This document shows, piece after piece, positions 1 to 63,229 of a stretch of DNA of 64,000 bases (position 1 is its first letter; every line of letters starts with the position of its first letter). A program made the position numbers and the translations under genes. The DNA is taken from NCBI RefSeq assembly GCF_009914755.1, contig NC_060947.1; one strand, 5' to 3'. The notes beneath the pieces were generated by a model. The model worked only from the letters and a program-made list of their open reading frames with translations, searched no databases and had not been told where the DNA came from. This DNA comes from the human T2T-CHM13v2.0 reference genome, Homo sapiens.

Positions 1-3000
1 CCCAAGGCTCTCTGACTGACTCCTTCCCAGATCTTCTTGGCTCAGCGGCTGAAGACTGATGCTGCCCGATCGCCTCAGAAGCCCCGTAGACCATGATGGA
101 CACCGAGCTTTAGGTAACTCTCACAGTGGAAGATAAGTCCGTCCCCTTCTTAATCAATACGGGGCTACCCACTCCACGTTACCTTCTTTTCAAGGGCCTG
201 TTTCCCTTGCCTCCATAACTGTTGTGGGTATTGACGGCCAGGCTTCTAATCCTCTTAAAACTCCCCAACTCTAGTGCCAACTTAGACAATACTCTTTTAA
301 GCACTCCTTTTTAGTTATCCCCACCTGCCCAGTTCCCTTATTAGGCCGAGACACTTTAACTAAATGATCTGCTTCCCTGACTATTCCTGGACTATAGCTA
401 CATCTCATTGCTGCCCTTCTTCCCAATCCAAAGCCTCCTTTGTGTCCTCCTCTTGTATCCCCCCACCTTAACCCACAAGTATAGGATACCTCTACTCCCT
501 CCTTGGTGACCGATCATGCACCCCTTACCATCTCATTAAAACCTAATCACCCTTACCCCGCTCAATGCCAATATCCCATCCCACAGCACGCTTTAAAAGG
601 ATTAAAGCCTGTTATCACTCGCCTGCTACAGCATGGCCTTTTAAAGCCTATAAACTCTCCTTACAAGTCCCCCATTTTACCTGTCCTAGAACCAGACAAG
701 CCTTACAGGTTAGTTCAGGATCTGCGCCTTATCAACCAAATTGTTTTGCCTATCCACCCCGTGGTGCCGAACCCATATACTCTCCTATCCTCAATACCTC
801 CCTCCACAACCCATTATTCTGTTCTGGATCTCAAACATGCTTTCTTTACTATTCCTTTGCACCCTTCATCCCAGCCTGTCTTCGCTTTCACTTGGACTGA
901 CCCTGACACCCATCAGGCTCAGCAAATTACCTGGGCTGTACTGCCGCAAGTCTTCACAGACAGCCCCCATTACTTCAGTCAAGCCCAAATTTCTTCCTCA
1001 TCTGTTACCTATCTCAGCGTAATTCTCATAAAAACACACGTGCTCTCCCTGCTGATCATGTTCAGCTGATCTCTCAAACCCCGAGAACTACAAAACAACA
1101 ACTCCTTTCCTTCCTAGGCATGGTTGGATACTTTCGACTTTAGATAGCTGGTTTTGCCATCCTAACAAAACCATTATATAAACTCACAAAAAGAAACCTA
1201 GCTGACCCCATAGATCCTAAATCCTTTCCCCACTCCTCTTTCCATTCCTTGAAGACAGCTTTAGAGGCTGCCCCCACCCTAGCTCTCCCTGATTTATCCC
1301 AACCCTTTTCATTACACACAGCTGAAGTGCAGGGCTGTGCAGTCAGGATTCTTACATAAGGACCGGGATCATGTCCTGTAGCCTTTTTATCCAAACAACT
1401 TGACCTTACTGTTTTGCCTAGCCCTCAAGTCTGCGTGCAGCGGCCGCCGCTGCCCTAATACTTTTAGAGGCCCTTAAAATCACAAACTATGCTCAACTCA
1501 CTCTCTGCAGTTCTCATAACTTCCAAAATCTATTTTCTTCCTCACACCTGACACATACTTTCTGCTCCCCGGCTCCTTCAGCTGTACTCACTCTTTGTTA
1601 AGTCTCCCACAATTACCATCGTTCCTGGCCCGGACTTCAATCCAGCCTCCCACATTATTCCTGATACCACACCTGACCCCCATGACTCTATCTCTCTGAT
1701 CCACCTGACATTCACCCCATTTCCCCATATTTCCTTCTTCCCTGTTTCTCACCCTGATCACACTTGGTTTATTGATGGCAGTTCCACCAGGCCTAATCGC
1801 CACACACCAGCAAAGGCAGGCTATGCTATAGTACAAGCCACTAGCCCACCTCTTAGAACCTCTCATTTCCTTTCCATGGTGGAAATCTATCCTCAAGGAA
1901 ATAACTTCTCAGTGTTCCATCTGCTATTCTACTACTCCTCAGGGATTATTCAGGCCCCCTTCCTTCCCTACACATCAAGCTCGGAGATTTGCCCCCATCC
2001 AGGACTGGCAGATTGGCTTTACTCAACATGCCCCGAGTCAGATAACTAAAATACCTCTTAGTCTAAGTAGACATTTTCACTGGATAGGTAGAGGCCTTTC
2101 CTACAGGGTCTGAGGAGGCCACCACAGTCATTTCTTCCCTTCTGTCAGACATAATTCCTCTGTTCAGCCTTCCCACCTCTATCCAGTCTGATAACAGACC
2201 AGCCTTTATTAGTCAAATCAGCCAAGCAGTTTTTCAGGCTCTTGGTATTCAGTGAAACGTTTATATCCCTTACAGTCCTCAGTTTTCAGGAAAAGTAGAA
2301 CAGACTAATGGTCTTTTAAAAACACACCTCACCAAGCTCAGCCACCAACTTAAAAAGGAATGGACGATACTTTTACCACTTTCCCTTCTCAGAATTCAGG
2401 CCTGACCTCAGAATGCTAGAAGGTACAGCCCATTTGAGCTCCCGTATAGACGCTCCTTTTTATTAGGCCCCAGTCTCATCCCAGACACCAGACCAACTTA
2501 GACTGTGCCCCCAAAATCTTGTCATCTCTACTATTTTCTGTCTAGTCATACTCCTATTCACCAGTTTCAACTACTCATAAATGCCCTGCTTTTGTTTACA
2601 CTGCCAGTTTACACTGTTTCTCCAATCTATCACAGCTGATATCTCCTGGTGCTATCCCCAAACCGCCACTCTTAAAGTGAATAAATAATCTTTGCTGGCA
2701 AGGCTATGCTGAACCTCCTTAGGCACTCTCTAATTAGATGTCCTAGGTCCTCCCAATTCTTAGTCCTTTAATACCTGTTTTTCTCCTTCTCTTGTTCTGT
2801 TTAGTTTTTCAATTCATACAAAACTGTATCCAGGCCATCACCAATAATTCTACACAACAAATGTTTCTTCTAACAACCCCACAATATCACCCCTTACCAC
2901 AAAATCTTCCTTCAGCTTAATCTCTCCCACTCTAGGTTCCCACGCCTCCCCTAATCCCGCTCGAAGCAGCCCTGAGAAACATCACCCATTATCTCTCCAT

Positions 3001-3080
3001 ACCACCCCCAAAATTTTCACTGTCCCAACACTTTACCACTATTTCTTTTTATTTTTCTCATTAATATAAGAAGACAGGAA
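1..3080 (+). mobile_element. HERV-H internal region (end of gag, pro, pol, env remnant); 5' part lies outside the window
   Basis: Protease-like VTLTVE..SVPFLINT (113-161), RT fragment, RNase H TWFIDGSS (~1763-1786), integrase-like SIQSDNRPAF and SGKVEQTNGLLK (~2180-2320), env TM remnant ~2620-3060, polypurine tract AAGAAGACAGGAA 3068-3080. Many stops and frameshifts. Confidence 0.95.
503..1069 (+). pseudogene. HERV-H pol reverse transcriptase fragment, non-functional
   Basis: ORF has YRLVQDLR, LDLKHAFF (normally LDLKDAFF) and LPQVF (normally LPQGF), but the YxDD region is missing after SPHYFSQA, as in the common deleted HERV-H form. Confidence 0.9.
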
Positions 3081-3492
3081 TGTCAGGCCTCTGAGCCCAA
3101 GCTAAGCCATCATATCCCCTGTGACCTGCACATACACATCCAGATGGCTGGTTCCTGCCTTAACTGATGACATTCCACCACAAAAGAAGTGAAAATGGCC
3201 TGTTCCTGCCTTAACTGATGACATTATCTTGTGAAATTCCTTCTCCTGGCTCATCCTGGATCAAAAGCTCCCCTACTGAGCACCTTGTGACCCCCACTCC
3301 TGCCTGCCAGATAACAACCCCTTTGACTGTAATTTTCCTTTATCTACCCAAATCCTGTAAAACAGCCCCACCCCTATCTCCCTTCACTGACTCTCTTTTC
3401 GGACTCAGCCCACCTGCACCCAGGTGAAATAAACAGCCTTGTTGCTCACACAAAGCCTGTTTGGTGGTCTCTTCACACGGACGTGCATGAAA
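3081..3492 (+). mobile_element. HERV-H 3' LTR (LTR7, short 412-bp type)
   Basis: Starts TGTCAGGCCTCTGAGCCCAAG and ends GCATGAAA. 24-bp U3 repeat GTTCCTGCCTTAACTGATGACATT at 3151-3174 and 3202-3225; AATAAA 3428-3433. Confidence 0.95.
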
Positions 3493-3699
3493 CCCATCTG
3501 TCAGTGTTTTCAAAGATTCTTTTACTATAGCTTTGATAGGGATTGGATAAGGAGTGAAATTATGAGTGGACTGAATTTTTCATTTTTACTCGTGAGCCTA
3601 TTGCAGTATTGAATATATACTTATGCGTAGTAATGTGGAAAGACTTCTATGAAAAAAATTCTAATTGACCAAAGCAAGCAGCGGAACAATATGGGAAGT

Positions 3700-3905
3700 G
3701 TGTGGTCCACCACTCACTAACTGAGTAAGCTTTTACAAGTTGCTCAACCTTTCAAACCAACTTCATCGTTCATGAAATGGTGATTAAAATAAGACCTCCT
3801 TCATAGGTGGTGAGCATAAGGTGGAAAAAATCACCATGTAATAGTTGCTTAGTAAGTGTCTGCCATGTAGTAAAAACCCTCTAAATATTGTTAGCTATTC
3901 TTATT
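3700..3905 (+). mobile_element. MIR SINE remnant
   Basis: MIR core-like CAAGTTGCTCAACCT...ATGAAATGG and 3' end AAATATTGTTAGCTATT; approximate ends. Confidence 0.6.
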
Positions 3906-4037
3906 ACTATAGTATACCTTTTATTGTTCCATTTGTATTTCTTAAAACCCTTATGCTTACTTTTTTATGTCATGACTGGTAATTTCAGTCCCCAAATTCA
4001 GGACTGAATAATTTTCTTTGTTCAATAATTGATATTA

Positions 4038-39215: not shown

Positions 39216-39741
39216 TGTAGTAGGCAGAATAATGGGTCTCCCAAAATATCCATGTTCTAATTCTCAGAAACTGTGAGATCTTACCTTACGTGGCAAAAGG
39301 GACCTTAAATATCTGATCAAGGGTTTGTCAGAGACCTTAAGATAGAGATCATTCCAGTATCTGGTGGACCCAATTTAATCAAATGAGTCCCTAAAAGCAG
39401 AGAATTTTCATGGGCTGCGGTCAGAGAGAGATGCAATGACAGAAGGGTCAGAAAGACAGATGTGAGAATGACTCAACCTGCCTTTGCTGACTTTGAAGAC
39501 GGAGGAAGGGAACCCCAAGACAAAGAATGCTGATGGTCTCTAGAAGCTGGAAAAAGGAAGAACACAGATTTTCCCCTCAGGGCTCCAGAGAGGAGTGAAG
39601 TTCTTACTTACATCTTGATCTTAGCCCAGTGAGATCCGTGTTGAACATGAAGCCCAGAGAACTGGAAGATGATAAATGTGTGTTGTTGTAAACTGCTAAG
39701 TTTGTGGTAATTTGTTACAGCAGCAACAGAAAACTAATACA
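39216..39741 (+). mobile_element. MLT1D-type MaLR LTR
   Basis: TGTAGTAGGCAGAATAATGG start and GAAAACTAATACA end. Confidence 0.85.
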
Positions 39742-40304
39742 AAAGCAAAGCTAAACATCTCCCAACGTTTAATCTTTTTACCGCTGTGTAGACCCTCTGC
39801 CACAATCAGTAATCAAAAGTTTTGACTCACCCTGATGCATACAAAAAGGAGTTTTACTATCTCACATAACCAGAAACAGGATGGACTTTATCACAGAGTC
39901 ACAGAACTCTGGCTGTTGACAGTTCTCTTGGCCCTGGACTCTACTGTGTATTGACAAGATGACTGCCCCAGCACCAGGCCTCACTTCCACACACGATAAT
40001 GTCCAGAGAAAGAGCAGGACTGTCTCTTCCTGTGTCTTCTACATGAGAGTGAGGAGGTTTTCCTAACACCCCTCAGCTATGTATGTTGTGATTCTGAGCA
40101 TGAAATCTAGAACCAGACTGACTGGATTAGAATAACAATGCTGCTATTTAGCAGCTGTGTAGCCTTTCTTGGACAAGTTACTTAACCTTTTTGTGCCGAA
40201 TTTTCCTCAACTGTAAGGTGGAATAAGTACATTTTATTCTACCTAATTGAGGTATTACATAAGTTATTATTTGTATAGAGCTTAGAATATTAGTTGGCAC
40301 GTAA

Positions 40305-42293: not shown

Positions 42294-45032
42294 TGATGGC
42301 AGCGGTGGCCCGTCTGGAGTGGTCACTGCCATGATGCTTGCTGCAGTGGGGGAGGCGTGGCCGGGGCTCTGCACTCCATGGAGCTGGCAGGAGCCAGGAA
42401 CAGGCGGGAACCCTGCCCCATTGTGAGTTTCAGGGGCAGAAGCCCCGCCCTCCTGGGTGCAGCTGCAGTTGCAGCTGCCCAGCCTCATGGACCCGGGCAT
42501 CCCTGCGCTCTCGGGGACCCAGGAAACCCTCCTGCCCCATAGGCTCAGAATTGCCTGCTCCTGCTGCATGGCCTCTCCCCACTCCCAGCACCCACCCTGA
42601 TTTAGGAGAAAAGTTGAGGCTGAGCCCAGACGCTGTCAAGACCCGGCCAGGTGTGCGTGCACTCAGGGCAGCACTGACATGCCAGCCCTCTGCCACCTCA
42701 GCTCCCTCCAGACTTTAGGTACCTAGGAGCACGGGAGGGAGGCCAACGTGGGGGTGAGGGCAACTCAGTGCAGGCCTGCAGGTACCCCTCAGCAGGAACA
42801 GCCTGGGCGCCATGAGTGCCATGGACGGCAGGTTGATGGCAGCAGGAGGCAGACAGGCCTCTGGGCGGAAAGGGGTGGGTCTCCAGTGAAACCTCACCTT
42901 CAAGCAAGGAATGGCCTGCAGCCTGGGGACCAGGCTGCCAGTTCCGTGGACCAGAGTGAGAAATTATGATGTTTTCTCCAGGCCCACTCATGGCCGGCCA
43001 TGGACCAATCAGCATGCGCTTCCTCCCCTCTGAAGCCCATGAAAACCCTGGATTCAGCCAGACTTGGGCAGATGATGGGATGACCTGCCTGCAGATAGGA
43101 GCTACTCACTCCCAAGTCTCCTCTCCACTGAGGGCTGCACAGATGTCGGGACGACCTGCCTGCAGACGGGAGCTACCCATTGCAGATCTCCTTTCCACTG
43201 AGAGCTGGACACTCATCGGGACAACCTGCCTGAGGAAAAAAGCTACCCACTTCTGGTCTCCTGAGAACTGCTTTGCTGCTCCATGAAGCTCCTCTCTGCC
43301 TTGCTCACCCTCCAGTTGTCTGTGCTCCTATCAGGGGAACCAGCCACCAATATTTCAATGTAGATTCTTTTCTATTTTCCCTAAGTGTTGGCCGGTCTGA
43401 GAAATAAAGAGAAAGAGTACAAAGAGAAGAATTTTACAGCTGGGCCGCCAGGGGTGACCTCACATATCAGCAGGTTCCGTGATGCCCACCTGAGCCGCAA
43501 AACCAGCAAGTTTTTATTGGGGATTTTAGAAGGGGAGGGGGTGTACGGACAGGGAGTAAGTCACAAAGATCACATGCTTCAAAGGGCAATAAAAGATCAC
43601 AAGGCAGAGGCAAAAATTAGAATTACCGATGAGGGTCTGTGTCCCACTGTGCACGCATTGTCTTGATAAGCATCTTAACAGGAAACAGTGTTGGAGAGCA
43701 GACAACCAGTCTGACTAGAATTTACCAGGCTGGAATTTCCCAACCCTAGTAAGCCTGAGGGCACTGCAGGAGACCAGGGCATATTTCAGTCCTATCTCAA
43801 CCGCATAAGACAGACACTCCCAGAGCCGCCATCTATAGATCTACCCCCAGGAATGCATTCTTTCCCCAGGGTTACTCCATGCTGGGAAAATAATTCAGTG
43901 ATATTTCTCCTACTCGCATATCCATCTATAGGCTTTCTGTGAGAAGAAAAATATGGCTGTATTCTGCCCGACCCCGCAGGCAGTCAGACCTTATGGTTAT
44001 CTTCCCTTTTTCCCTGAAAATCGCTGTTATTCTGTTCTTTTTCAGGGTGCACTGATTTCATATTGTTCAAGCACCCATGTTTTACAATCAGATTTCATAT
44101 TGTTCAAACACACGTTTTACAATTTGTACAGTTAATGCAATCATCACAGGGTCCTGAGGTGACATACATCCTCAGCTTACGAAGATAATGTGATTAAAAG
44201 ATTAAAGACAGGCATAAGAAATTATAAGAATATTAACTGGGGAAGTGATAAATGTCCATGAAATCTTCACAATTTATGTTCAGAGATTGCAGTAAAGACA
44301 GGTGTAAGAAATTATGAAAGTATTAATTTTGGAAACAGATAAATGTCCATGAAATCTTCACAATTTATGTTCTTCTGCCACGGCTTCAGCCAGTCCCTCC
44401 GTTCGGGGTCCCTGACTTCCCGCAACAGCTCCTTATTCTACCTGGATGCAGGACAAGAACTCAGGACCTGCCAAATGATGGGACTAAAAGAGCTGTAACA
44501 CAAACAGGGCTGAAACACTCCCTCCCACTTGCCACATTGCAGATGACAAGAAGGAGAGAAGAGCTGCAGCTTTTGGGGGACCCCAGACCTGGGGGTTCCT
44601 CGAGCCATGGCTGTGACACCCTCTTTGGGGTTCTGAGGTTCCTGGCATCTCCAAGTGTCTGGGTCCCACTGCATTCCCGTCGTCCAGACATGGGTGCCCA
44701 CAGTGGAAGCCAAATGCAGTACACCTGGTCCAGCCACAGCCTCACACAGAGCCAGTGCCTGTGCTGGCATGTGGAGCTGCCCACCCCACCTCAGCAGCCA
44801 GTGTGCCTGGCTGTGAGCATTGACTGGACCCTGTGCTCACTTGCCCACACTCTCTCACCACTCCGCACCTGCCTCACACTTGGCAGGTGTGGGATAGAGC
44901 CAGTAGCACAAGCTGAGCATAGCCTGCTGGGCCGAGTTGGCAGAAGCAAGTGTGAGCAATACTCAGGCAGAAGGCACCACTAGCCACAGAAGTTTCTAGC
45001 TGGTGAAGTGGCACCCTAAGGATCCTGTGACA
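42294..45032 (+). mobile_element. MER52 (MER52A-like) solo LTR interrupted by MER11
   Basis: TGATGGCAGCGGTGGCCC start and GATCCTGTGACA end; TSD TCAT at 42290-42293 and 45033-45036. Confidence 0.85.
43329..44427 (-). mobile_element. MER11 (HERV-K11/HML-8) solo LTR
   Basis: Reverse complement starts TGTTGCGGGAAGTCAGGGACCCCGAACGG; ~1.1 kb; TSD GCTCC(T). Confidence 0.9.
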
Positions 45033-48806: not shown

Positions 48807-49779
48807 AAGGCAGTATTGTCTAATAGGAATTTCTACAGAATGAAAATATTTTATAATCTGAGCAATCCAATATGGTAACTGATATGTGGCTAGTGTTACG
48901 GAGAATCAAAAAAATTTCTTATTTAATTTACATTTAAATAGGCACACATGGCTAGTGACTACCATATTGGACACTGTATGGTATTGTTTTGCCAATCTTG
49001 GCAAATCCCTGACCACTTAATCATGTTTTTGTCAACATTTCTGCCCCAACTGCTTATTCACTGGGAAACACAATGTTGGAAACAATGAAAATGAGTACAA
49101 CATATGCTTTGTCTTCCAGGTGAACCTGACAGCCTCCCTTTTGCTTTTGGTGTGGATGGCTGAGCATAATACATATGCAGCAGACAGGCCATTATTTTAC
49201 CCTGGGCATGCCAAGGTGTGAGAAAAGCTCTCAGGGATCTAGTTCATGAGCTGCAGTGTCCCTGCCAATAATTCTGACATCTTCAGGTGGCCCTGGGTAC
49301 TAGTGGAAGTCTCATTAAGGTTAGGCTTAAGTTTCCTTTCTCAGTGGGCATTTTCACTTTACTAGCACTGTCATCTTCAAAATTCTGGCCTTTTAATGGT
49401 TGACGACTCAATTCTGGCAAGCTGAGTTTCAAACCCCTCCTTCTCCATTTTAAAGTTTGCTTTTCAAAACCAGCCTAACGGGCATCATTTCAGTGTGTGA
49501 TGAAGTAGGCACTTATTGAGCAATAAACCTGTGGATTTACGCTTATGGGTTTCCAGAAGCAACTTTGCCACAATCCTGTGAAATCTTGCTCACAGTTCAT
49601 TGAGCTCTGACTGGATCTTGAATTATAGCTGATGCTCCAAACAGAAAGTAATATTTGTCACATCCTATAACTGTATGTTCTTCAGCTTTGGAAAACCATG
49701 GATTGAAACATTCACTCTGCTGGGTCTGAAGTAACCCCCTAAATCCTGGATCACAAAGTTCTAAGGTGCCACTGTATTT

Positions 49780-50900
<1,121 letters not shown>

Positions 50901-51146
50901 ACTAAGTTCAAAAATAATTTTAAAATATATTGCAAAATATATCATTTCCACCTTTGTCCCATGTTCATTCAGTTAGATCTCACTCCTCCTTTTCCCATGA
51001 GGGACTATTTTTTATTAGTTTTAAAAAATTAGTTTATTTTATTATTTATCAGTTTTCTATATTTTCAGAGCTCCTTTATGGGGATATTCCTATTTAAATG
51101 TTTAACAAGCTTTCCATGGAAATTAGTGGAAAGTCTGGACAATTAC

Positions 51147-51321
51147 CCTATTTTGAACAACCCAGGAGGTGTGTTCTTTACTTTTTTTTGTGCTGCTAAT
51201 GCTACAGAAACAGCAGTTGAGATGATAGCTGTTATGTACAGTAATAAGACAAGAGCCATAATTTGCACAGTATTCCAGACAGGATGTGCACATGTTATCT
51301 AATCCAGCTGTTTTGTCAGGA
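51147..51321 (-). pseudogene. Transmembrane exon remnant (ITCAHPVWNTVQ-IMALVLLLYITAIISTAVSVALAA-QKKVK)
   Basis: TTTAG acceptor and AGG|GTAATT donor; 24 uncharged residues (51191-51262) followed by a basic cluster; one TAG upstream. Confidence 0.6.
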
Positions 51322-51849
51322 CTAAATAATTCAGCTTTTTAAACAGAAAGCTTAAAAACCACATATCTAAGTTGTAAGTCAGTCCGTTTATCCTCTAAGC
51401 TGTAAATCCTCTAACCAGAAAGATTCATTGGCATTGTAGGACTCACATAAGCAAGGATGTATGTTTTGCTGCAGAAGTGCTGACTTCACTGATACGGAGC
51501 TCTTGACTCCCCAATTCCTCAGTTACTCACTGGTAGTAAGCTGGACCCTTAGGGAGGTGCATTAACTCTTTTGAGCTACCTGGGTAACATTACCACACAG
51601 AAAATTAACGTAAAAGAAGATTGCCTTCTCTATAAATGTTCCTTTTTGCAAGCTTGCTTAAGTACCAAAGTTCCACTTTGAGGCAGTCTGGATAACTTAC
51701 TTATGAAACTTTGAAAGTCTGTGTGTGCACAGTGTTGCAACAGTCATATGTCAAACTTCAGGAGAAAAGGCTTATGCACTCTAGAAGAGTTAATTTACCA
51801 AAGGTAAGACGTTGTCAAAAGTAGCATATGTCCTGCATATATCAGCCAC

Positions 51850-52102
51850 CTAGAGTAGTCAAATTCATAGAAGTAGAAAGCAGAAAGGTGGTTGTCAGGG
51901 ATTGGAGGAGGAAGCAAATGGGGAATTGTTAATGGGTACAGAATTTCAGTTTGGGAAGTTAAAAAGGTTCTGGAGATGGATAGTGGTTATGGTTGCACAA
52001 CAATGGGATTATATTTAATTGTTACTTAACTGTACATGTAAAAATGGTTAAGATGGTAAATTTATACTATGTATATTTTGCCACAATAAAAAAGAAAAAA
52101 AA
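51850..52102 (+). mobile_element. L1MB-like 3' UTR
   Basis: GTTCTGGAGATGGATAGTGG..GGTTGCACAACAATG; A tail. Confidence 0.8.
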
Positions 52103-52178
52103 TTAAGGTAGTTTCAGTTCTGATAGGCAATTACAGAAAAATCGTTTTAACTTTTCCTTTAATTACACATATCTGTAA

Positions 52179-52525
<347 letters not shown>

Positions 52526-52821
52526 ATTTTGAATCTTAACTATAGCTGATGAAAGTAGAATAGTTATTATTTGGGAGTTTAAGAATAATTGTGATATAAT
52601 TGTTATTTCACTGTCAATATGATATCATTATATTTCCTATGAAGATCCACAATTATTTTTCATCTGTCACAGATTTGAACACTTGATTAAAAGACAAAAG
52701 TTTTTTAAAATATAAAGAATACACTTCTTTCCTGTCTTAAAAATAAGTAGCTGATAGATAATCCACTTATGGTTATAGGTGATCACATGCATACATTTCA
52801 GACCAATTAAAAACAATTTAC

Positions 52822-52990
52822 CAACAAAATTATCTTGATTGCCCTGCAGCTGTGGTAGACATGTGGGAAAATCCTTACACTGACATCTGATAAGAAGAAC
52901 CTCAGGTGTGGGGTGCATACTTGGGGAATATTGGCTGGAATTGAGGCTTGAATTCTACCATGGAGTATGTTTAGATTCATACATATTTTG
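52822..52990 (-). pseudogene. Extracellular exon remnant
   Basis: TCTTCCTAG acceptor and TTG|GTAAAT donor; one frame reads TYSMVEFKPQF (NEFxPxF-like); its phase-1 end joins the TM exon in frame. Confidence 0.4.
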
Positions 52991-53447
52991 CTAGGAAGAG
53001 CCTTCAAACACCCTTTATCACTCCCCAGGAGAAAAAAAAAAATCTGACTAGAGCCATTCCTGAGTCAGAAAAGCAACTGAATATAGATGTCATCATGCGG
53101 TTTCAATGCCAACAGATGTAATACATAAATGGGAGAATAGTTCAACTAATGCCAGGTGCCATACAACAGAAGTAACAATCTCTTAGTAACTATTTAGGCA
53201 GCTGAGCTATGTGCCAAGATTCTTAAGGTATTTTTGATACCATTTTAAATAAAGAACCCTCGTGGATTTCAGTGAAAACTCAATTCTGATAATTATTGCA
53301 CCTATTTAGATCTAGAACATATTATGTATTTATTACATATTAATACATATTTGCATAATCAATGAATTATATAATAAACATATTAACAAATATTATTTGC
53401 ATCCACTAAAAAATTCTTTAGTTATATATAAAATTATATAATAAATG

Positions 53448-53857
53448 GTATTAGGCCATTATTGCATTGCTACAAAGAAATACCTGAGACTGGGTAATTT
53501 ATAAGAAAAGAGGTTTAATTGGTTCATGGTTTGGTTCTGCAGGCTGTACAGGAAGCACAGCACCGGCATCTGCTTCTGGGGAGGCCTCAGGAAGCTTCCA
53601 ATCATGGCAGAAGGCAAACAGGAAACAGGCATATCACATGGCGAAAGTAGGAGCAAGAGAGACAGAGAGTGTAGGGGGAAGTGCCACACACTTTTAAAAG
53701 ACCAGATTTTGCAAGAACTCACTATTGTGAAGACAGCACCAAACTATGAGGGATCCACTTCCATGACCCAAACACCTCTCACCAGGCCCCACATGTGGCA
53801 CTGAGGATTATATTTCAACATAAGATGGGGTGGGGGACAAATATCCAAACTATGTTA
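53448..53857 (-). mobile_element. MSTB-type MaLR LTR
   Basis: AAAGAAATACCTGAGACTGGGTAATTTATAA and GGGACAAATATCCAAACTAT. Confidence 0.85.
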
Positions 53858-55146
53858 TGAATATTATAATTATAAAACTTTTAGCACATTTCACAGTTTT
53901 CAAACTGTAAGTCAAGTCACACATTTATTTTTATTCTAACTCCCTATTTTAAATGAGGCACTCTGCTAGGCCAAGCCACACCTAAAATTTGTGGGTCTCA
54001 GAGAAAGTTATAAATCAAGCTGGCAGAGAAATAATGTATGTCCATCTTCCTACCTTGAGCAGTAAAGAAAGAGCCAGTGTCAAGCCTGCCCCACTTCTTT
54101 TCTCCTCACCTTGTTTCTGTTCTACCAGGGGCTACATACATTAGGCATGTGAACACTCAGCCCACACGTCCAAACATTATACTCCATCCACCTACTCCCC
54201 TGCCAACAGCCACCACTTAGCAAATTCTCAGAACCAGGGGTGCACATACCAGCAATGATCACTTTCAAACTGAAAAAGAGGCACATAAATGCCTTGGACA
54301 CTCAAATGAGGTTAGAATAATTTGGGAAGGCCCTGAGTTCCAAGTAGATCTCTCACTCCGGTTGGTAAAAGACCAAAGCAGTCCCTCAAAAGTACTGGAA
54401 CCAAGGCAGGATCTCTTCTTATTTTATTCTAACAACAGTGGTACTGTTAGGCTGCTAGGTACAATGAAGAATGTAAGGAAAGCAGCAGCGGCAACAACAA
54501 CAAAGATTCCACCTCTCCTACAGCTTGCAGTTTCATTGGTGGAATAAGTTCCTCATAAGAATGAGCACAACTCTTAATTACATCTTACAAGGAACTTAAA
54601 AATCACTTTTCTAAGCTTAAGGCAACCTTTTTCAGCATACAGAACCAGGTCTTCCTTTTAGAAAAATACTGGCAAGCAGCTTCTTTTTGGAAACTTTCCT
54701 ACTGCCCACACCCCTTCATTGCAACCCCAATAATCCACCAGACAGGTATATTCTCATCAGAGCTTCCAAAGCACCTGTGCATGCTTCTACCCAGTGCATC
54801 ATCTCATGTTAATGTCATGTGTTTCTGCCTCTTAGTCACATCAAAGGAGCAAGGAGAGGAATGAGGTCATCTCTGTGGTTGTATACCAGTGCCTAAGAGA
54901 GAATAAGTGAAGAAAATTTATCTTTTATTAGCCTCAGTAGTGATCCATCAGTGCCCACCAATAATTCCTGTTCTGAAAGCCCCCCAGTAAATTTTCTCAT
55001 CTTTGAAAAAAATGAATCTGTTACTTGAACATTTGTTACAGTTTATTTTGCAGCTTTTCCATCACTTTTGCCAACACTTTTGCAAGCACAGAACTTTACA
55101 TTTTCTCAGAGCAAGTCCCAGTGACAAGGAATATATTTAATCTTAC

Positions 55147-55353
55147 CATTACAGGAGCATATTTACATGCACCTGGAGGAAGTATCTGATACTATTTCTA
55201 AAGATTAAGTAACAGTGCCTCTTCACTCTTGAATCTAGGTCACACCCACTGATACATTGAAGTCAATATATGGCGTTTCACCATTTTGGAAGGCATTTAA
55301 TATCCTTTCTGTTGCTCCTTGCCTCCTTATTTATTCCTTCCCCATTAGTGCAT
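55147..55353 (-). pseudogene. Cadherin-repeat exon remnant
   Basis: TCTTATCCTTGTTTCAG acceptor and ATG|GTAAGA donor; begins R|CTNGEG (CTDxD-like); frameshifted pieces CDLDS and YQIL/LQVHV. Confidence 0.5.
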
Positions 55354-55818
55354 CTGAAACAAGGATAAGATGGCTTTTTTCAGTGGTGTCTCCAGAGCCA
55401 CAGAAAAAAATAATTGGATAATTATTTTAGGACAATAAATAAGGCGTCCACTCGTTCAATTAAAGTATACATTTCTATTCTAGTATTTTCTAAAGAATTT
55501 TTTTGAAACACCACATTCAGGAAACAATGTTAGTGCTTAAAAGGTGGAAGGAAGGGATATGATTAACCACTTTCACAACCACTGAGCTTACTCAGCTTAC
55601 AGGATTTATCAGAACTCCTCAAATGCTAATGTTTATTTTAAAACTTGGAGGTGGGCAGAACTGTAGGTTGCAGAATTTCCCAAACTTATCCCACAGAGAA
55701 ATTTGTTTCATGAAACGTCCCCATGAAACAAGTGTTTTACTCAACATGCCTTGGGAAATGCTTCTGAATTCAAAAACAAAAGTATTTTAAATATATACAA
55801 TGTATTGATCACTTACAT

Positions 55819-56048
55819 TAGGGGTCATTAAACTTCTTCTGTAAAGGGCCAGATAGTAAATATTTCAGGCTTTATAAGCCATATTATGCAGTGTCTGTTA
55901 CAACTACTTAATTTTGTATTTGAGGTGCAAAAGCAGACATAGACAATAGATAAGCAAATAGGGAATAGTTGCGTTCCAATAAAAACCTATTTACATAAAC
56001 AGGAAGTGGGCTGGATTTGGCCCACAGGCCATAGTTTGCCAGCCTCTG
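55819..56048 (-). mobile_element. MER58A hAT MITE
   Basis: AGGGGTC..CTGTAAAGGGCCAGATAGTAAATATTT...GGATTTGGCCC..TAGTTTGCC. Confidence 0.85.
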
Positions 56049-56706
56049 ATCTAAATTATGGTCAAATAAAGAAGAAAGATAGGAATGGGAGGTAGGGAAT
56101 GAGAAGGGAAAACTCTAGGAAAAAGAGACAAATATACAGACACAAAGGGATAAATATGTTTTTTAAAAGGAAAAAAACCAGGATGTCATAGAATGATATA
56201 CCCATGAAATGATTATAGATATATACATGCACATGCATGTGCACATGCACACACACACACACACAAAGACATATACACAGAGAACAACAGTAGAAAGTAT
56301 AATAGACAGAAGTAAAAGCATAGGTGAACATACTGGTTCTATTGTATAGATGTATTCATATTTTTTATATGTGGATATATGGAAGAAAATTGCAGTAAAT
56401 TATTTAAAATATTTTAGCCAACTTCTGACATTTACTATCTAAACCTTTTGAAGTCCGCTCTTTGTCTCATTTTAATATTTTCAAATTATCCAATTTCCTA
56501 TTCTAAAAGATAATGCTGCATTTTATTTTATATAAAAATAACTATATTTTAAAATAATATCTACTTCTTATCGTGAGACTTTTGCCATCAAAAGCTTGCA
56601 ATGCCATTTTGAAAGTTCAAAATGTGCTTCCAATAGAGATTACCTTGGAGGCTTGGCCTAATTAAACAGAAGGCTAGCTTAAGCCTGAGGAACAGAACAT
56701 CCTTAC

Positions 56707-56897
56707 CTATGAGTTAAACATCTAAGAGGATCCCATTTCCTCTCTTGAATCAAAGAATTACTGGAGAAACATATCTTGATTGAGGAAAACCTTATCGAAA
56801 TTGGGATGTTTTCAATAATGTTATGAACTTCAGTAATTGTTTGCTTTGCATTGGTTGGCTCTCTGCTATCAGACACAGACATGGTTTTCAAGGACAT
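56707..56897 (-). pseudogene. Cadherin-repeat exon remnant
   Basis: CCAG acceptor and TAG|GTAAGG donor; SVSDSREP..TITEVHNIIE, then frameshifted HPNFDK (VxDxxxP...DxNDxxPxF-like). Confidence 0.55.
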
Positions 56898-57570
56898 CTG
56901 GATTGTGAAAACTTCAGCAAATTCATCCTTGACATTTCAGTGGGGGCAGGGGATAAAACATATTTGCTAATGTGAAAGTTTATTACACGTTGCATTTTAC
57001 CTTGAGAAAGTGTTGATTCTTTCTGATATGTGGATAGTCCTGAAAGTTACATTTAAAAATAAAAAGTATATTTTAAGTTAGGCCATTACTGGGAAAGGGT
57101 GCTTTTCTTTCACTGTGTGGAAGGAGTGTATTGCATTTCTATAGTGCCTCTTTAAAGAGCAGCTATGAATTTGCAGAACTTCTCCACTAAATATATATAT
57201 ATATATATATAACTTGCTATCCCTTCAGCCTCACTCTTTCAATATTTAAGAACTACATATCAGATTATTTTGCTATTCCCAGTTTCCAAATATCAATTTA
57301 ATTTGTTACGAGTTGGACAAATGAAATGTTTTGATCCCAGACTAGGAAAAAATTTTACTAAACTCACAAAATAAATGGAAAATCTAACTCCCAGCCCTGG
57401 GTCCATCTTAATATTTAGTCAGTGATGTTAAATCCATTGTTTGGTTTCCAAGTTGTCAAAGATAAAAGAAGTTTTAAGGCTCATCTTATCTAAATGGCTT
57501 CTTTGACACAGAAATGACTTATGCAAGTTTCTGTGACTGATTCGTAAAAGTGGAAAAACTCCAATCTTAC

Positions 57571-57650
57571 AAGCCTCAGGATCCTTTTCACTCTGTTGTA
57601 ACACAGCTCCCATATTTTCATAGTCTATATTTTCCATAGTCTTCCTTCTG
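57571..57650 (-). pseudogene. Cadherin-repeat exon remnant (IDYE)
   Basis: TTTTAACAG acceptor and CTT|GTAAGA donor; TMENIDYENMGAVL resembles the LDYE motif. Caveat: it overlaps a short internal duplication. Confidence 0.45.
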
Positions 57651-58751: not shown

Positions 58752-60496
58752 TAGGGACACACAAACACAATTTTTCTCTTAGAAACACTGGGCTCATATT
58801 GTAGATACTATTTTGTAATCCAAAAATTACACTTGATAATATATTGTGAACACTTTTACTCCATGTAATCCCCTTCTAAAATGTGATTTTGTAGTAGTGT
58901 ATATTATGGAAGTAATTTATTAATATATTAAATTAATTCCCTATATTAGTCATTAAAGTTGTTTCCAGTGTTTTGCTATTATAAGTAACACCATAATGAA
59001 TACACTTTGCAATTAAATCTGAGTTTAAATGTTTGATTCTTTCAGATTCCTAGAACTTGAGTCATTAGGTCACACTTTAAGCTTTTGATACACACGGACC
59101 ACTTACCTTCCAGAAAACTATACCTGTATTAATCCCACAAATAATTCACCCTAGGCAAAAGTTATCACTTTTTAAAAATCCTTTCAGAGGCATAAATGAA
59201 ATATTATTTTGCAATTTGTTTTCCTTCATTTTATAGTTAGGTTTAATAATATGTGGTTATTTTCTACTTGTATTTTTTATCATTGCGAGTTGCTTATTCA
59301 TGTCCTGGAACAAATAACTAATTTATTATATAAGTAGTTCTTGTTTTATTTTTTCTTTCTTTTTTATTTAAAAAAAACTGTCTACATTAATGTTGTTAAA
59401 ATTGTTGTGAATATTTGTGTCTGTCTTTTCCTATTAAATTTGTTTGTGATGCTTTTATGATATAGAATGTAGAGTTATTTCGTTTCCTCCTCTTTCCCCC
59501 ACAAAAAATTGTTAATCAATTGTCTCAGAACAACTGATGGCCCCTTTCCTGAAAATTTTCACCAAAAATGTTACATGTTTCATGTACTAAACTGTTTTAT
59601 GTACTTGGATTTGTTGCTGAGCTTTTTATTTCATTTAACTGATTATTTTTGAATTTGTTTCAACTGGTAACTTGCTATGATTTTAAAATGTTATATTATT
59701 GGCGGTGTGAACTTCACCATTCGATAACACAAGTGTCCCTTTGCAAAATTATCATGGCCGTTTATTCTTTCATTCATTCTACAAACACCTACTCAGCTCT
59801 ACTATTTGCTATGCTCAGTTTCAGGCTCTTGGTGCCAACTTGTAATTTTTATAGCATTACAATAGTATTTGTTATTTTACTATAAAAATAATATATTTTC
59901 ACTGGAGACATTTTAGAAAATTCAAGTATATACAAATTAGAAAATAACAGTACCTACAATCAAATTACCCAGTCATAATGCTATGGACTATAAACTTAGA
60001 GTGATAACTATTCACAATAGATGGTAGATTTTTTGCAGTATGTACTTAATATATAGATGACTTTGATTCTAATTTTAAGTATATTATACAGATTTTCTAA
60101 TGTAATTAAACATTTTTGACAGTAGCATGTTAATGACTTGGTTGTTTTCCTTAGTATGGATACACCATAATGCATGTACACATATTAGATATTTTTAGAT
60201 TTTACTATTGTAAAGAATGCCATGATCAATATCCTTATGCATATGTCTTGCATCTGAGCATTCCTTTAACACATATTTGTGGAAACAGCTCATCTATTTG
60301 AAACTTTCAAAGAAAATTAAAAAGAGTTTTGTCAAGTTTCTAAATATCCCATTGACATTTTGGTAAACATTACATTTTAAATTCATAAGTTATTTTTGTC
60401 TAGTTAACATATTTGCACATTAAATTTTTCTGCTCTGATATATAATTATCCACTTATTTAATTACTCCTAATTTAAAATATTGTAATTTTCCTTTA

Positions 60497-60879
60497 AATG
60501 TTTTATTTTTATTTTTATTATTTTTTATTTCAATAAGCTTAGGGGTAAAAGTGGTTTTTGGTCACCTGGATGAATTGTATAGTGGTGAAGTCTTGGTTTT
60601 TAGTGCACCCATCACCTGGTGTACATTGTACCCAATGGGTGATTTTTTTATCCTTCACCCTGCTTCCACTCTCCTTGCTTCTGAACCTCCAATGTCCATT
60701 ACACCACTCTGTATGCCTGTGTGCACCCATGGCTTTGTTCCCACTTATAAGTGAGAATATGCTGTATTTGGTTTTCTGTGTCTGAGTTACTTCATTTAGG
60801 ATAATAGCCTCCAGTTCCATCCAAGGTGCTACAAAAGATATTATTTCATTATTTTTATGGCTGAGTAGTATTACATGGC

Positions 60880-60914
<35 letters not shown>

Positions 60915-61240
60915 TTTTCTTTATCTGTCATTGGTGGGCACTTAGTTTGATTCCATATCTTTGCAATTGTGAATTGTGTTGCAATAAACATACAAGTGCA
61001 GGTGTCTTTTTAATATAATGACTTATTTTCCTTTGGGCAGATAGACAGTAGTAGGACTACTAGATCGAACGGTAGATCTACTTTTGGTTCTTAAAGAAAT
61101 CTTCATATTGTCTTCCATAGAAGTTGTACTAACTTACATTCCCACCAACAGTGTACAGATGTTCCCTTTTCACCACATCTGCGCCAGCATCTATTGTCTG
61201 TTGACTTTTTAATGATGGCCATTTGACTGGGGTAAGATAG
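60497..61240 (-). mobile_element. L1MA1/2-like 3' fragment with an internal (TA)n(CA)n
   Basis: ORF2 end MELEAIILNEVTQ; 3' UTR GGATGAATTGTATAGTGGTGAAGTC. Confidence 0.85.
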
Positions 61241-62629
61241 ACTTTTTACTTCTTTTTAAAATATTTTGTGTTACTATTGAGAATGGCATCTGTGTTTGGC
61301 AATATTAGATGGTAAGCCATGATCCTACATTCAAACTGCCTTGTTTTTACTTCACTTCCACATTTTTCAACAGCTTATCCAACTAGGCCTTACATAACAA
61401 GTAATAGTCTCCAGATGGAATGGCAAAACAACTCTACCAGTGCACTACATCTGTAACTCAGCTCCTCTATCTCTGTTTCTCTGCCTGGATCTTCTTCCTC
61501 CTCCTCTCTCATTGCCTTCTCTGCCTGTCCACTCTTATTCAAAACAAAAACTGTCTTCTGGCTTGTACTAATTCCCCTTTTCCCTGTATGTGTCTCAGTT
61601 TCTGAGATATTCTAGGGATTATGCCCCTAGGTGTGTTCACATAAATAGAGAGGATCCGGTTAGTTCACAGAGTCATTAATAAAATAAGGGTCACCTCATT
61701 TGGGCAGGCCAGAAGTTTCTGGTTTACTTATGCATGACTGCTCTTGGGAGCCACCCTTGATCAAATTTTCTGTGGATAGGGAAATGAAGTCATGTAGCAT
61801 AAAGTCTAGCAAACTATGCGTTGGATACGTGCTAAGAAGGTGGCTGTGGATACAGTAGGCATACAGACTGTGATGTTTGTTAAGAATCTTGTTCTACTAT
61901 ATTTTAACTCATTATTGTTGTTTTATAGAAACAGTATTAATTTTTTATAATTAGTTTGTAACCAGCTGCTTTGTTGAGATTTATTGTTATTCTAATAGTT
62001 TTTAAAGTTTTTCCTATTAAGCTTCTATGTAGATATTTTCTTCAGTGACTTTTTCCCTCCACATTTCTAATATTGACAGCTCATTTCTTTATCTTGGTGT
62101 ATAAAATTGGATAGATGCTCCAGAAAAAAAAACCTGAAATATAGTAAAGATAGAGACCATTCTTGCCTTGCTCCTGAATGTAGTGGGATTGCCTCTATAC
62201 TCAGTATTTAATGGGTATCGGCTCCTGGGTTGAGACACATACATTTTATCTTACTATGGAAGTACCTTTCTATTCCTAATTTACAAATAATTATTATTAA
62301 AAATAGATGTTGAATTTAATAGCATGTTGTTTGGGCACCTAATAATTTGATCATTTGGGTTTTCTTTTTCTCCACTCACTAATTGGTATGATAAATCATA
62401 TTCTATTTCATATGGCTGTATGGTTTATTTTTGTTAATGTTTTCATAAGATGGACTTACTGATTCCTTTAATCTTTCTGACTTTGTTTTCCTTGTTATTC
62501 TGTAGGAAATACATAGTTTTATTTGTTTATCCAATGTATTTTTTCAATAAAGAAAAGTTTGATCTTATCTTTCTCTTCTTGTTTCATACATTATGACTTT
62601 CATGCTTCCAAACATTTAATTTTGCCAAG

Positions 62630-63062
62630 TGTAATAGATTTTCCAATTAACTGCTCCCCTCCTATAAGAGGATAGTAGATCCTTGCCCATTGCCACGTGA
62701 TCTTTAAAAATGCCCTGTGAGAAGTGTATGTGACACTTCTCCACTGATGTCAGATGTGGGTACATGACTTGATTTAGTAAATGTAATGCCAATGGACTGG
62801 TTATACCTTATAACTGAGTAGAAGCAGGGGGAAAAGAAAGGCCTTTGTGTATTTTAGTCTCCTCTTTTTCCCTCTGAAATGAGGAGTACCTGTTCCATAT
62901 AGGGGATGATCCCTTCAGAACTAATCCTGAAATGAAGACATGTGGGGCAGAGCCTCAGCCAAAATGTAACATGAGTGAAAGGTAAATATTTGTTGTTGTA
63001 AGACACTAAAAATTAAGGGTTGATTTTTTTCTACAGCATAGTCTATTGAAAGCTGAAAATAC
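62630..63062 (+). mobile_element. MLT1I/J-type MaLR LTR
   Basis: CATGACTTGATTT..AATG, GAAGACATGTGGGGCAGAGCC, TTTGTTGTTGTAAG. Confidence 0.6.
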
Positions 63063-63229
63063 CAAGAACCTGTCTTTTAAAAAATATGCATGGTTAGGTG
63101 GGTTTTTTCCAGAAGCCTTCTAATTTAGCTACAGAATTTAACTAAATATTCACTATATTAATTTCTGACCCATTCGCAAACCAATCTAATGGAGCAGAGG
63201 CATTTAGATAATGACTCAAGGCCTTTTTT

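What the first reader, a model, noticed from the sequence alone, without database searches (positions are those of the whole stretch)
52822..57650. Four clustered exon remnants spelling cadherin repeats
Motifs appear in cadherin order across the exons: IDYE (57571-57650); SVSDSREP..ITEVHNIIE/HPNF (56707-56897); CTNGEG..CDLDS..YQIL/LQV (55147-55353); VEFKPQF (52822-52990). Some readings need assumed frameshifts, so each is weak alone; the order plus the splice signals is the evidence.
Basis: partly seen in the sequence, partly recalled or inferred. Interest (0 to 1): 0.7.

Follow-up and report, generated by a model that had tools for sequence, protein, structure and literature searches.

The report
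Decayed exon of lost X gene
This unannotated stretch of the human X chromosome holds a conserved, frameshifted block that is likely a broken exon of a lost protein-coding gene of unknown family; the proposed cadherin repeats did not hold up.

Summary
There is no Pfam or own-HMM hit. A frameshift-aware test puts three of four segments at or near chance (26, 75, 172 of 300 shuffles; B 7 of 300, trypsin 10 of 300). The stated exon order is not the best of 24.

Segment B is real. Two unnamed database proteins (P0003, P0005) are homologues from two other lineages. They agree gap-free over 63 codons where human has frameshifts, and P0003 has no cadherin score. Codon positions 1+2 differ at 16 of 184 sites inside and 13 of 56 beyond the donor (p=0.008), while third positions change at the flank's rate. 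That is a coding signature.

Best reading: a 333-nt minus-strand exon of an unlisted lost gene (unitary pseudogene) of unknown family. A, C and D may be its neighbours but have no homologue evidence.

The parts
56707..57039 (-).
   Evidence: Homologues P0003 and P0005; positions 1+2 differ at 16 of 184 sites, visible third-position changes 8
56701..56706 (-). Splice donor GTAAGG ending B'
   Evidence: Score 10.1, 99.6th percentile; the GT is fixed by a Thr codon shared with P0005; divergence rises beyond it
57040..57053 (-). Likely acceptor (TTTCAG) starting B'
   Evidence: Score 3.5; compatible with P0005, whose alignment ends at 57053, so the upper edge of the block was not seen
56749..56906 (-). 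Four frameshifting indels relative to P0005: human shorter by 1 (near 56905), 16 (near 56803), 2 (near 56776) and 4 (near 56750) bases
   Evidence: P0003 and P0005 agree gap-free across the last three
57571..57650 (-). Segment A, possible upstream exon; its only stop-free frame ends in phase 1, matching the start of B', but the junction codon is a stop in human
   Evidence: Sequence only; purine 0.68; weak acceptor; no homologue
55147..55353 (-). Segment C, possible downstream exon (207 nt, 69 codons); stops in all frames (6, 3, 5)
   Evidence: Strong splice scores, purine 0.58; no homologue found
52822..52990 (-). Segment D, weakest exon candidate
   Evidence: Moderate splice scores; stops 1, 0, 5 by frame; no homologue search run

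Best explanation
The block at 56707-57039 is conserved in two other lineages and frameshifted in human, and is likely a decayed minus-strand exon of a lost multi-exon protein-coding gene of unknown, non-cadherin family. Shown: homology, indels, higher conservation than the flank, a shared donor. Inferred: it was once spliced and translated in the frame of P0003; selection held codon positions 1 and 2 while wobble positions drifted; the human lineage then lost the gene long ago, so the DNA now makes no protein. Untested: that A, C and D are exons of the same gene. A low-confidence model predicts the encoded piece to be helical.
For: P0003 (E 1.9e-6 among 1.84 billion proteins) matches B across two human frames. 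P0005 (E 1.1e-6) aligns over 56624-57053. The two fit gap-free at 55 of 63 codons and conflict at 8, so they are separate lineages sharing one indel state. Over 92 codons away from indels, minimal changes by position are 6, 10, 8. The neutral model at the flank's rate (t 0.3) expects 20, 22, 7.6, and a uniformly slowed model (t 0.1) expects 7.8, 8.4, 2.9. The third-position share 0.33 was reached in 29 of 1500 runs at t 0.1 and 62 of 1500 at t 0.08. Block versus left flank p=0.008. The divergence step falls at a strong donor. No paralogous DNA was found.
Against: Only protein translations of the homologues are held, not DNA, so synonymous changes are not seen directly. The flank is 28 codons; codons next to indels were dropped before counting. 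The upper boundary was not seen. P0005's lineage has a forced stop at codon 63 of P0003, and P0003 falls out of register after codon 65, so no intact copy was seen. No longer protein with this frame was found among proteins of 136-2000 residues (8 candidates) or in the representative library; whether those libraries hold vertebrate proteomes was not shown. B' is not purine-rich (0.50). The phase-matched frame of C has the most stops (6). No family was identified in Pfam, PDB or the human genome.
Confidence: 0.55

Rival explanations
1. A conserved non-coding element (enhancer or untranslated exon) with no reading frame; the third-position excess is a fluctuation.
For: The block is about 2.7 times more conserved than the flank. 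Several frameshifting indels are present and no intact copy was seen. The region downstream of IL1RAPL1 holds known enhancers such as HAR3094 (PMC10543033, passages).
Against: Uniform slowing predicts about 3 visible third-position changes, not 8. The edge falls at a strong donor. RefSeq's only element in the window is at 39729-40023.
Confidence: 0.2
2. Ordinary neutral orthologous DNA; the homologues are chance open frames in host DNA, and the patterns are noise.
For: P0005 is one sequence on one 1416-base contig. The flank sample is small, and only open frames can enter such databases.
Against: Block versus flank p=0.008, plus the position pattern.
Confidence: 0.1
3. A very old lost cadherin gene, too decayed for profiles.
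For: B scores 7 of 300 shuffles and the corrected model 5 of 200. The spliced search beat 99 of 100 and 100 of 100 shuffles. One frame of C has protocadherin-10 as its only PDB match (E 0.49) and scores 1 of 500 on an EC1 profile (circular, because the profile includes that protein). My test loses power at 0.3-0.4 substitutions per site.
Against: 56 of 68 real tiles of the 104 kb scored above the region's 28.2 bits, and that path used other segments, one in a repeat. Simulated decay of CDHR4 exons keeps z>=5 at 0.2 substitutions per site, whereas the real set gives z about 1-2, and positions 1+2 differ from P0005 by only 9%. P0003 lacks the P-x-F motif and any cadherin score, and its model is all helix (pLDDT 64). 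Equally weak matches point to trypsin (E 0.2), HPS4 (E 0.04) and guanylate cyclase (E 0.067).
Confidence: 0.07
4. The real gene was on the plus strand and P0005 (151 aa, with a hydrophobic stretch) is its product.
For: A long open frame; its wobble positions coincide with those of the minus-strand frame, so the position pattern fits both.
Against: P0005 is unusually rich in Trp, and 5 of its Trp codons in the block are TGA in human, as expected of a shadow frame. The frame runs through the poorly conserved flank. No plus-strand donor scores above 2.5 there. One member only, no Pfam family.
Confidence: 0.05

Closest known systems
Human unitary pseudogenes such as FSIP2LP (PMC9825485, passage) and TMEM274P, PFN5P (PMC6886504, passages)
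   Same: Single-copy exon remnant decayed in place, with frameshifts, and homologues in other lineages
   Different: No intact orthologue was identified here. It is not among the chrX rows of Supplemental Data S3 of PMC6886504 (1 row) or of the table passage seen in PMC2864566 (2 rows)
[quoted passage not shown]
   Different: That locus has ten PhyloCSF regions and a coding mouse orthologue; this one has no cadherin profile signal
Cadherin repeat PF00028 (FAT, CELSR, DCHS, protocadherins, CDHR4)
   Same: Short look-alike motifs (IDYE, VSD, P-x-F)
   Different: No HMM hit; motifs not kept in the homologues; spacing broken in the larger exon; predicted helical rather than beta

Membership tests
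Cadherin repeat (PF00028) | Profile match over an about 110-residue repeat | tested here: not met
   Pfam on 12 minus frames: no cadherin family; own HMM of 179 segments: best domain in 104 kb 4.9 bits, outside the finding; P0003 -1.4 bits
Cadherin repeat (PF00028) | Calcium-binding linker motifs (LDRE, DxNDNxPxF, AxDxD; recalled definitions) kept in relatives | tested here: not met
   No DxND or AxDxD in human or P0003; P0003 lacks the proline of HPNF
Cadherin repeat (PF00028) | Colinear tandem order across exons | tested here: inconclusive
Cadherin repeat (PF00028) | All-beta sandwich fold | tested here: inconclusive
   Single-sequence model of P0003 is four helices, pLDDT 64; Foldseek gave 0 matches at E<=0.001
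Trypsin-like serine protease (PF00089) | His, Asp and Ser motif exons | tested here: not met
   No AAHC or GDSGG-type motif on the minus strand in 40-75 kb; spliced profile best 18 bits elsewhere; the Asp-like position differs in P0003
Unitary pseudogene | Disabling lesions in human | tested here: met
   Four frameshifting indels relative to P0005; three confirmed by P0003
Unitary pseudogene | No working paralogue in the genome | tested here: met
   DNA and protein searches of the own genome found only the locus itself at E<1; these searches score few candidates
Unitary pseudogene | Past coding constraint | tested here: inconclusive
   Position pattern p about 0.02-0.04; block versus flank p=0.008; one pairwise comparison at protein level
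Unitary pseudogene | Intact, syntenic orthologue in another species | not testable with these tools
   No other mammalian genome is held; both homologues are short unplaced translations with lesions near the 3' end

The most novel reading that the evidence does not exclude
These segments are the remains of an undescribed mammalian multi-exon gene of no known family between IL1RAPL1 and the MAGEB cluster, lost independently in the human lineage and in at least two other lineages, and still intact but unannotated in some mammals.
Probability: 0.3. Interest if true: 0.55.

Novelty: new member of a known kind. Interest (0 to 1): 0.33.

Why it matters
If confirmed, it adds a gene loss missing from RefSeq and from the two unitary-pseudogene lists I checked, and points to a mammalian protein of no known family. 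Catalogues built from mouse orthologues would miss a gene that several lineages lost. It would also mean that conservation here reflects old coding sequence rather than an IL1RAPL1 enhancer. It is a fossil, so the direct consequence for human biology is small.

Tried and rejected
Cadherin: Pfam, own HMM, frameshift-aware and spliced aligners, and order permutation; weak at best.
Trypsin: prompted by E 0.2, rejected.
HPS4 (E 0.041), guanylate cyclase (E 0.067) and lysozyme (E 2): taken as chance among many frames tried.
P0001, P0002, P0004: tandem-repeat proteins that score by summing weak stretches; dropped.
The chr4 match of P0003 (E 1.2) lies in apparent intron sequence; chance.
Transposon origin of the four segments: no other genomic copies.
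Pfam on 24 flanking minus frames: only one E 0.03 match. Rfam: 0 matches. Homologue search with one frame of C: 2 candidates, none scored. Relatives of P0005 in viral and prokaryote contigs: none. The protein Atlas gave no result.
Literature searches found no description of this locus; the library lacks most subscription papers.

Full report
Observation. The nine motifs are on the minus strand at the stated places, inside four AG...GT segments: A 57650-57571, B 56897-56707, C 55353-55147, D 52990-52822. Splice scores are strong for the B donor and both ends of C, and weak for the A and B acceptors. Such pairs are common in the surrounding 104 kb (179 minus-strand donors with a candidate exon). 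The segments have no other genomic copy. Two repeats sit between them, at 53448-53853 and about 55810-56060.

Cadherin test. Pfam found no cadherin family in 12 minus frames. I built an HMM from human FAT, CELSR, DCHS and protocadherin loci (179 segments; gene names recalled from position). It found nothing in the finding. A frameshift-aware, codon-decay aligner scored the intact CDHR4-region control 236 bits. Per segment, shuffles reached the real score in 26 (A), 7 (B), 75 (C) and 172 (D) of 300 cases; a trypsin profile gave B 10 of 300. The spliced four-segment model was reached by 11 to 45 of 300 shuffles, and other exon orders scored higher.

The spliced search of 52.6-58.4 kb beat 99 of 100 and 100 of 100 shuffles, but 56 of 68 real tiles scored higher. 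One frame of C matched protocadherin-10 at E 0.49. Simulated decay shows the test keeps z>=5 to 0.2 substitutions per site and fades at 0.3-0.4, so only a very old cadherin could hide.

What is there. The 77-codon open minus frame over B was searched against 1.84 billion representatives. It returned 4 proteins: three tandem-repeat proteins, which I dropped, and P0003 (76 aa, E 1.9e-6). P0003 matches B across two human frames. A second search, with three other frames of B and a control row, returned P0005 (151 aa, E 1.1e-6, 1 of 291 candidates, one 1416-base contig), a plus-strand reading of the same DNA over 56624-57053. P0003 and P0005 are compatible gap-free at 55 of 63 codons and conflict at 8, so they come from two lineages, probably mammals (inferred). 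Human is shorter by 1, 16, 2 and 4 bases at four places and longer by 6 at one.

Coding signature. The block therefore extends to a second acceptor at 57040 (score 3.5). Over 92 codons, with those next to indels dropped, minimal changes by position are 6, 10, 8, against 8, 5, 2 in 28 flank codons; positions 1+2 give p=0.008. At the flank's rate the model expects 20, 22, 7.6: third positions match neutrality and the other two are about threefold lower. Uniform slowing would give about 3 at the third position; the observed share was reached in 29 of 1500 runs at t 0.1 and 62 of 1500 at t 0.08. These third positions are the wobble positions of P0003's minus-strand frame. They are also those of P0005's plus frame, but that frame looks like a shadow: 5 Trp codons in the block are TGA in human and no plus-strand donor is present. 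An earlier simulation gave a stronger result but conditioned wrongly on human stops and counted codons beside indels; I rely.

How it likely worked. Inferred: a minus-strand, multi-exon gene in which A (ending in phase 1) joined B' (phase 1 to 0), then C (207 nt) and D. Selection kept the frame for part of mammalian history. The human lineage then lost it, long enough ago to gather four frameshifts in 333 bases. Against this: neither homologue is intact near the 3' end, the phase-matched frame of C has 6 stops, and no full-length protein was found. That search covered only 136-2000 residues, and the control row was expected near E 100, so the presence of vertebrate proteomes was not shown. The family is unknown: Pfam, PDB and own-genome searches gave nothing significant, and the single-sequence model is helical at pLDDT 64.

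Known or new. RefSeq has no gene here (hub note). I saw passages of PMC9825485; passages and supplement searches of PMC6886504 (files 1 and 8 not searched, and they may bear on novelty); one table passage of PMC2864566; and passages of PMC10543033. None lists this locus. HAR3094 is given at chrX:30371544; by recalled hg38 gene positions that is outside the window (not lifted over). Searches were seen as listings only and found no description.

Verdict. Cadherin not supported (0.07). Decayed exon of a lost gene of unknown family 0.55; non-coding element 0.2; neutral 0.1; plus-strand gene 0.05. A new member of a known kind, interest 0.33.

Noticed in passing
window 53448-53853: Interspersed repeat with at least 40 genomic copies near 80% identity, not in the hub's masked list; looks like an LTR (family recalled, not tested)
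   Followed up: partly
window 55810-56060: Second unmasked repeat, at least 40 copies near 75% identity, between segments B and C
   Followed up: partly
window 42300-43300: GC-rich stretch (0.57 in 42-43 kb) that reads like a retroviral LTR of the MER52 type (recalled), followed by further LTR-like sequence; not masked in the hub list
   Followed up: no
window 49500-52200 and 60200-63200: Translations resemble decayed LINE-1 ORF2 fragments (recalled resemblance, no Pfam hit) flanking the unique 52.6-58.4 kb block
   Followed up: no
window 52795-53020, + strand: One plus frame over segment D gives a weak guanylate cyclase match (PF00211, E 0.067); probably chance
   Followed up: partly
   Followed up: no
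window 1-4000: Strong negative GC skew (-0.4), consistent with the masked retroviral-like sequence at the window start
   Followed up: no
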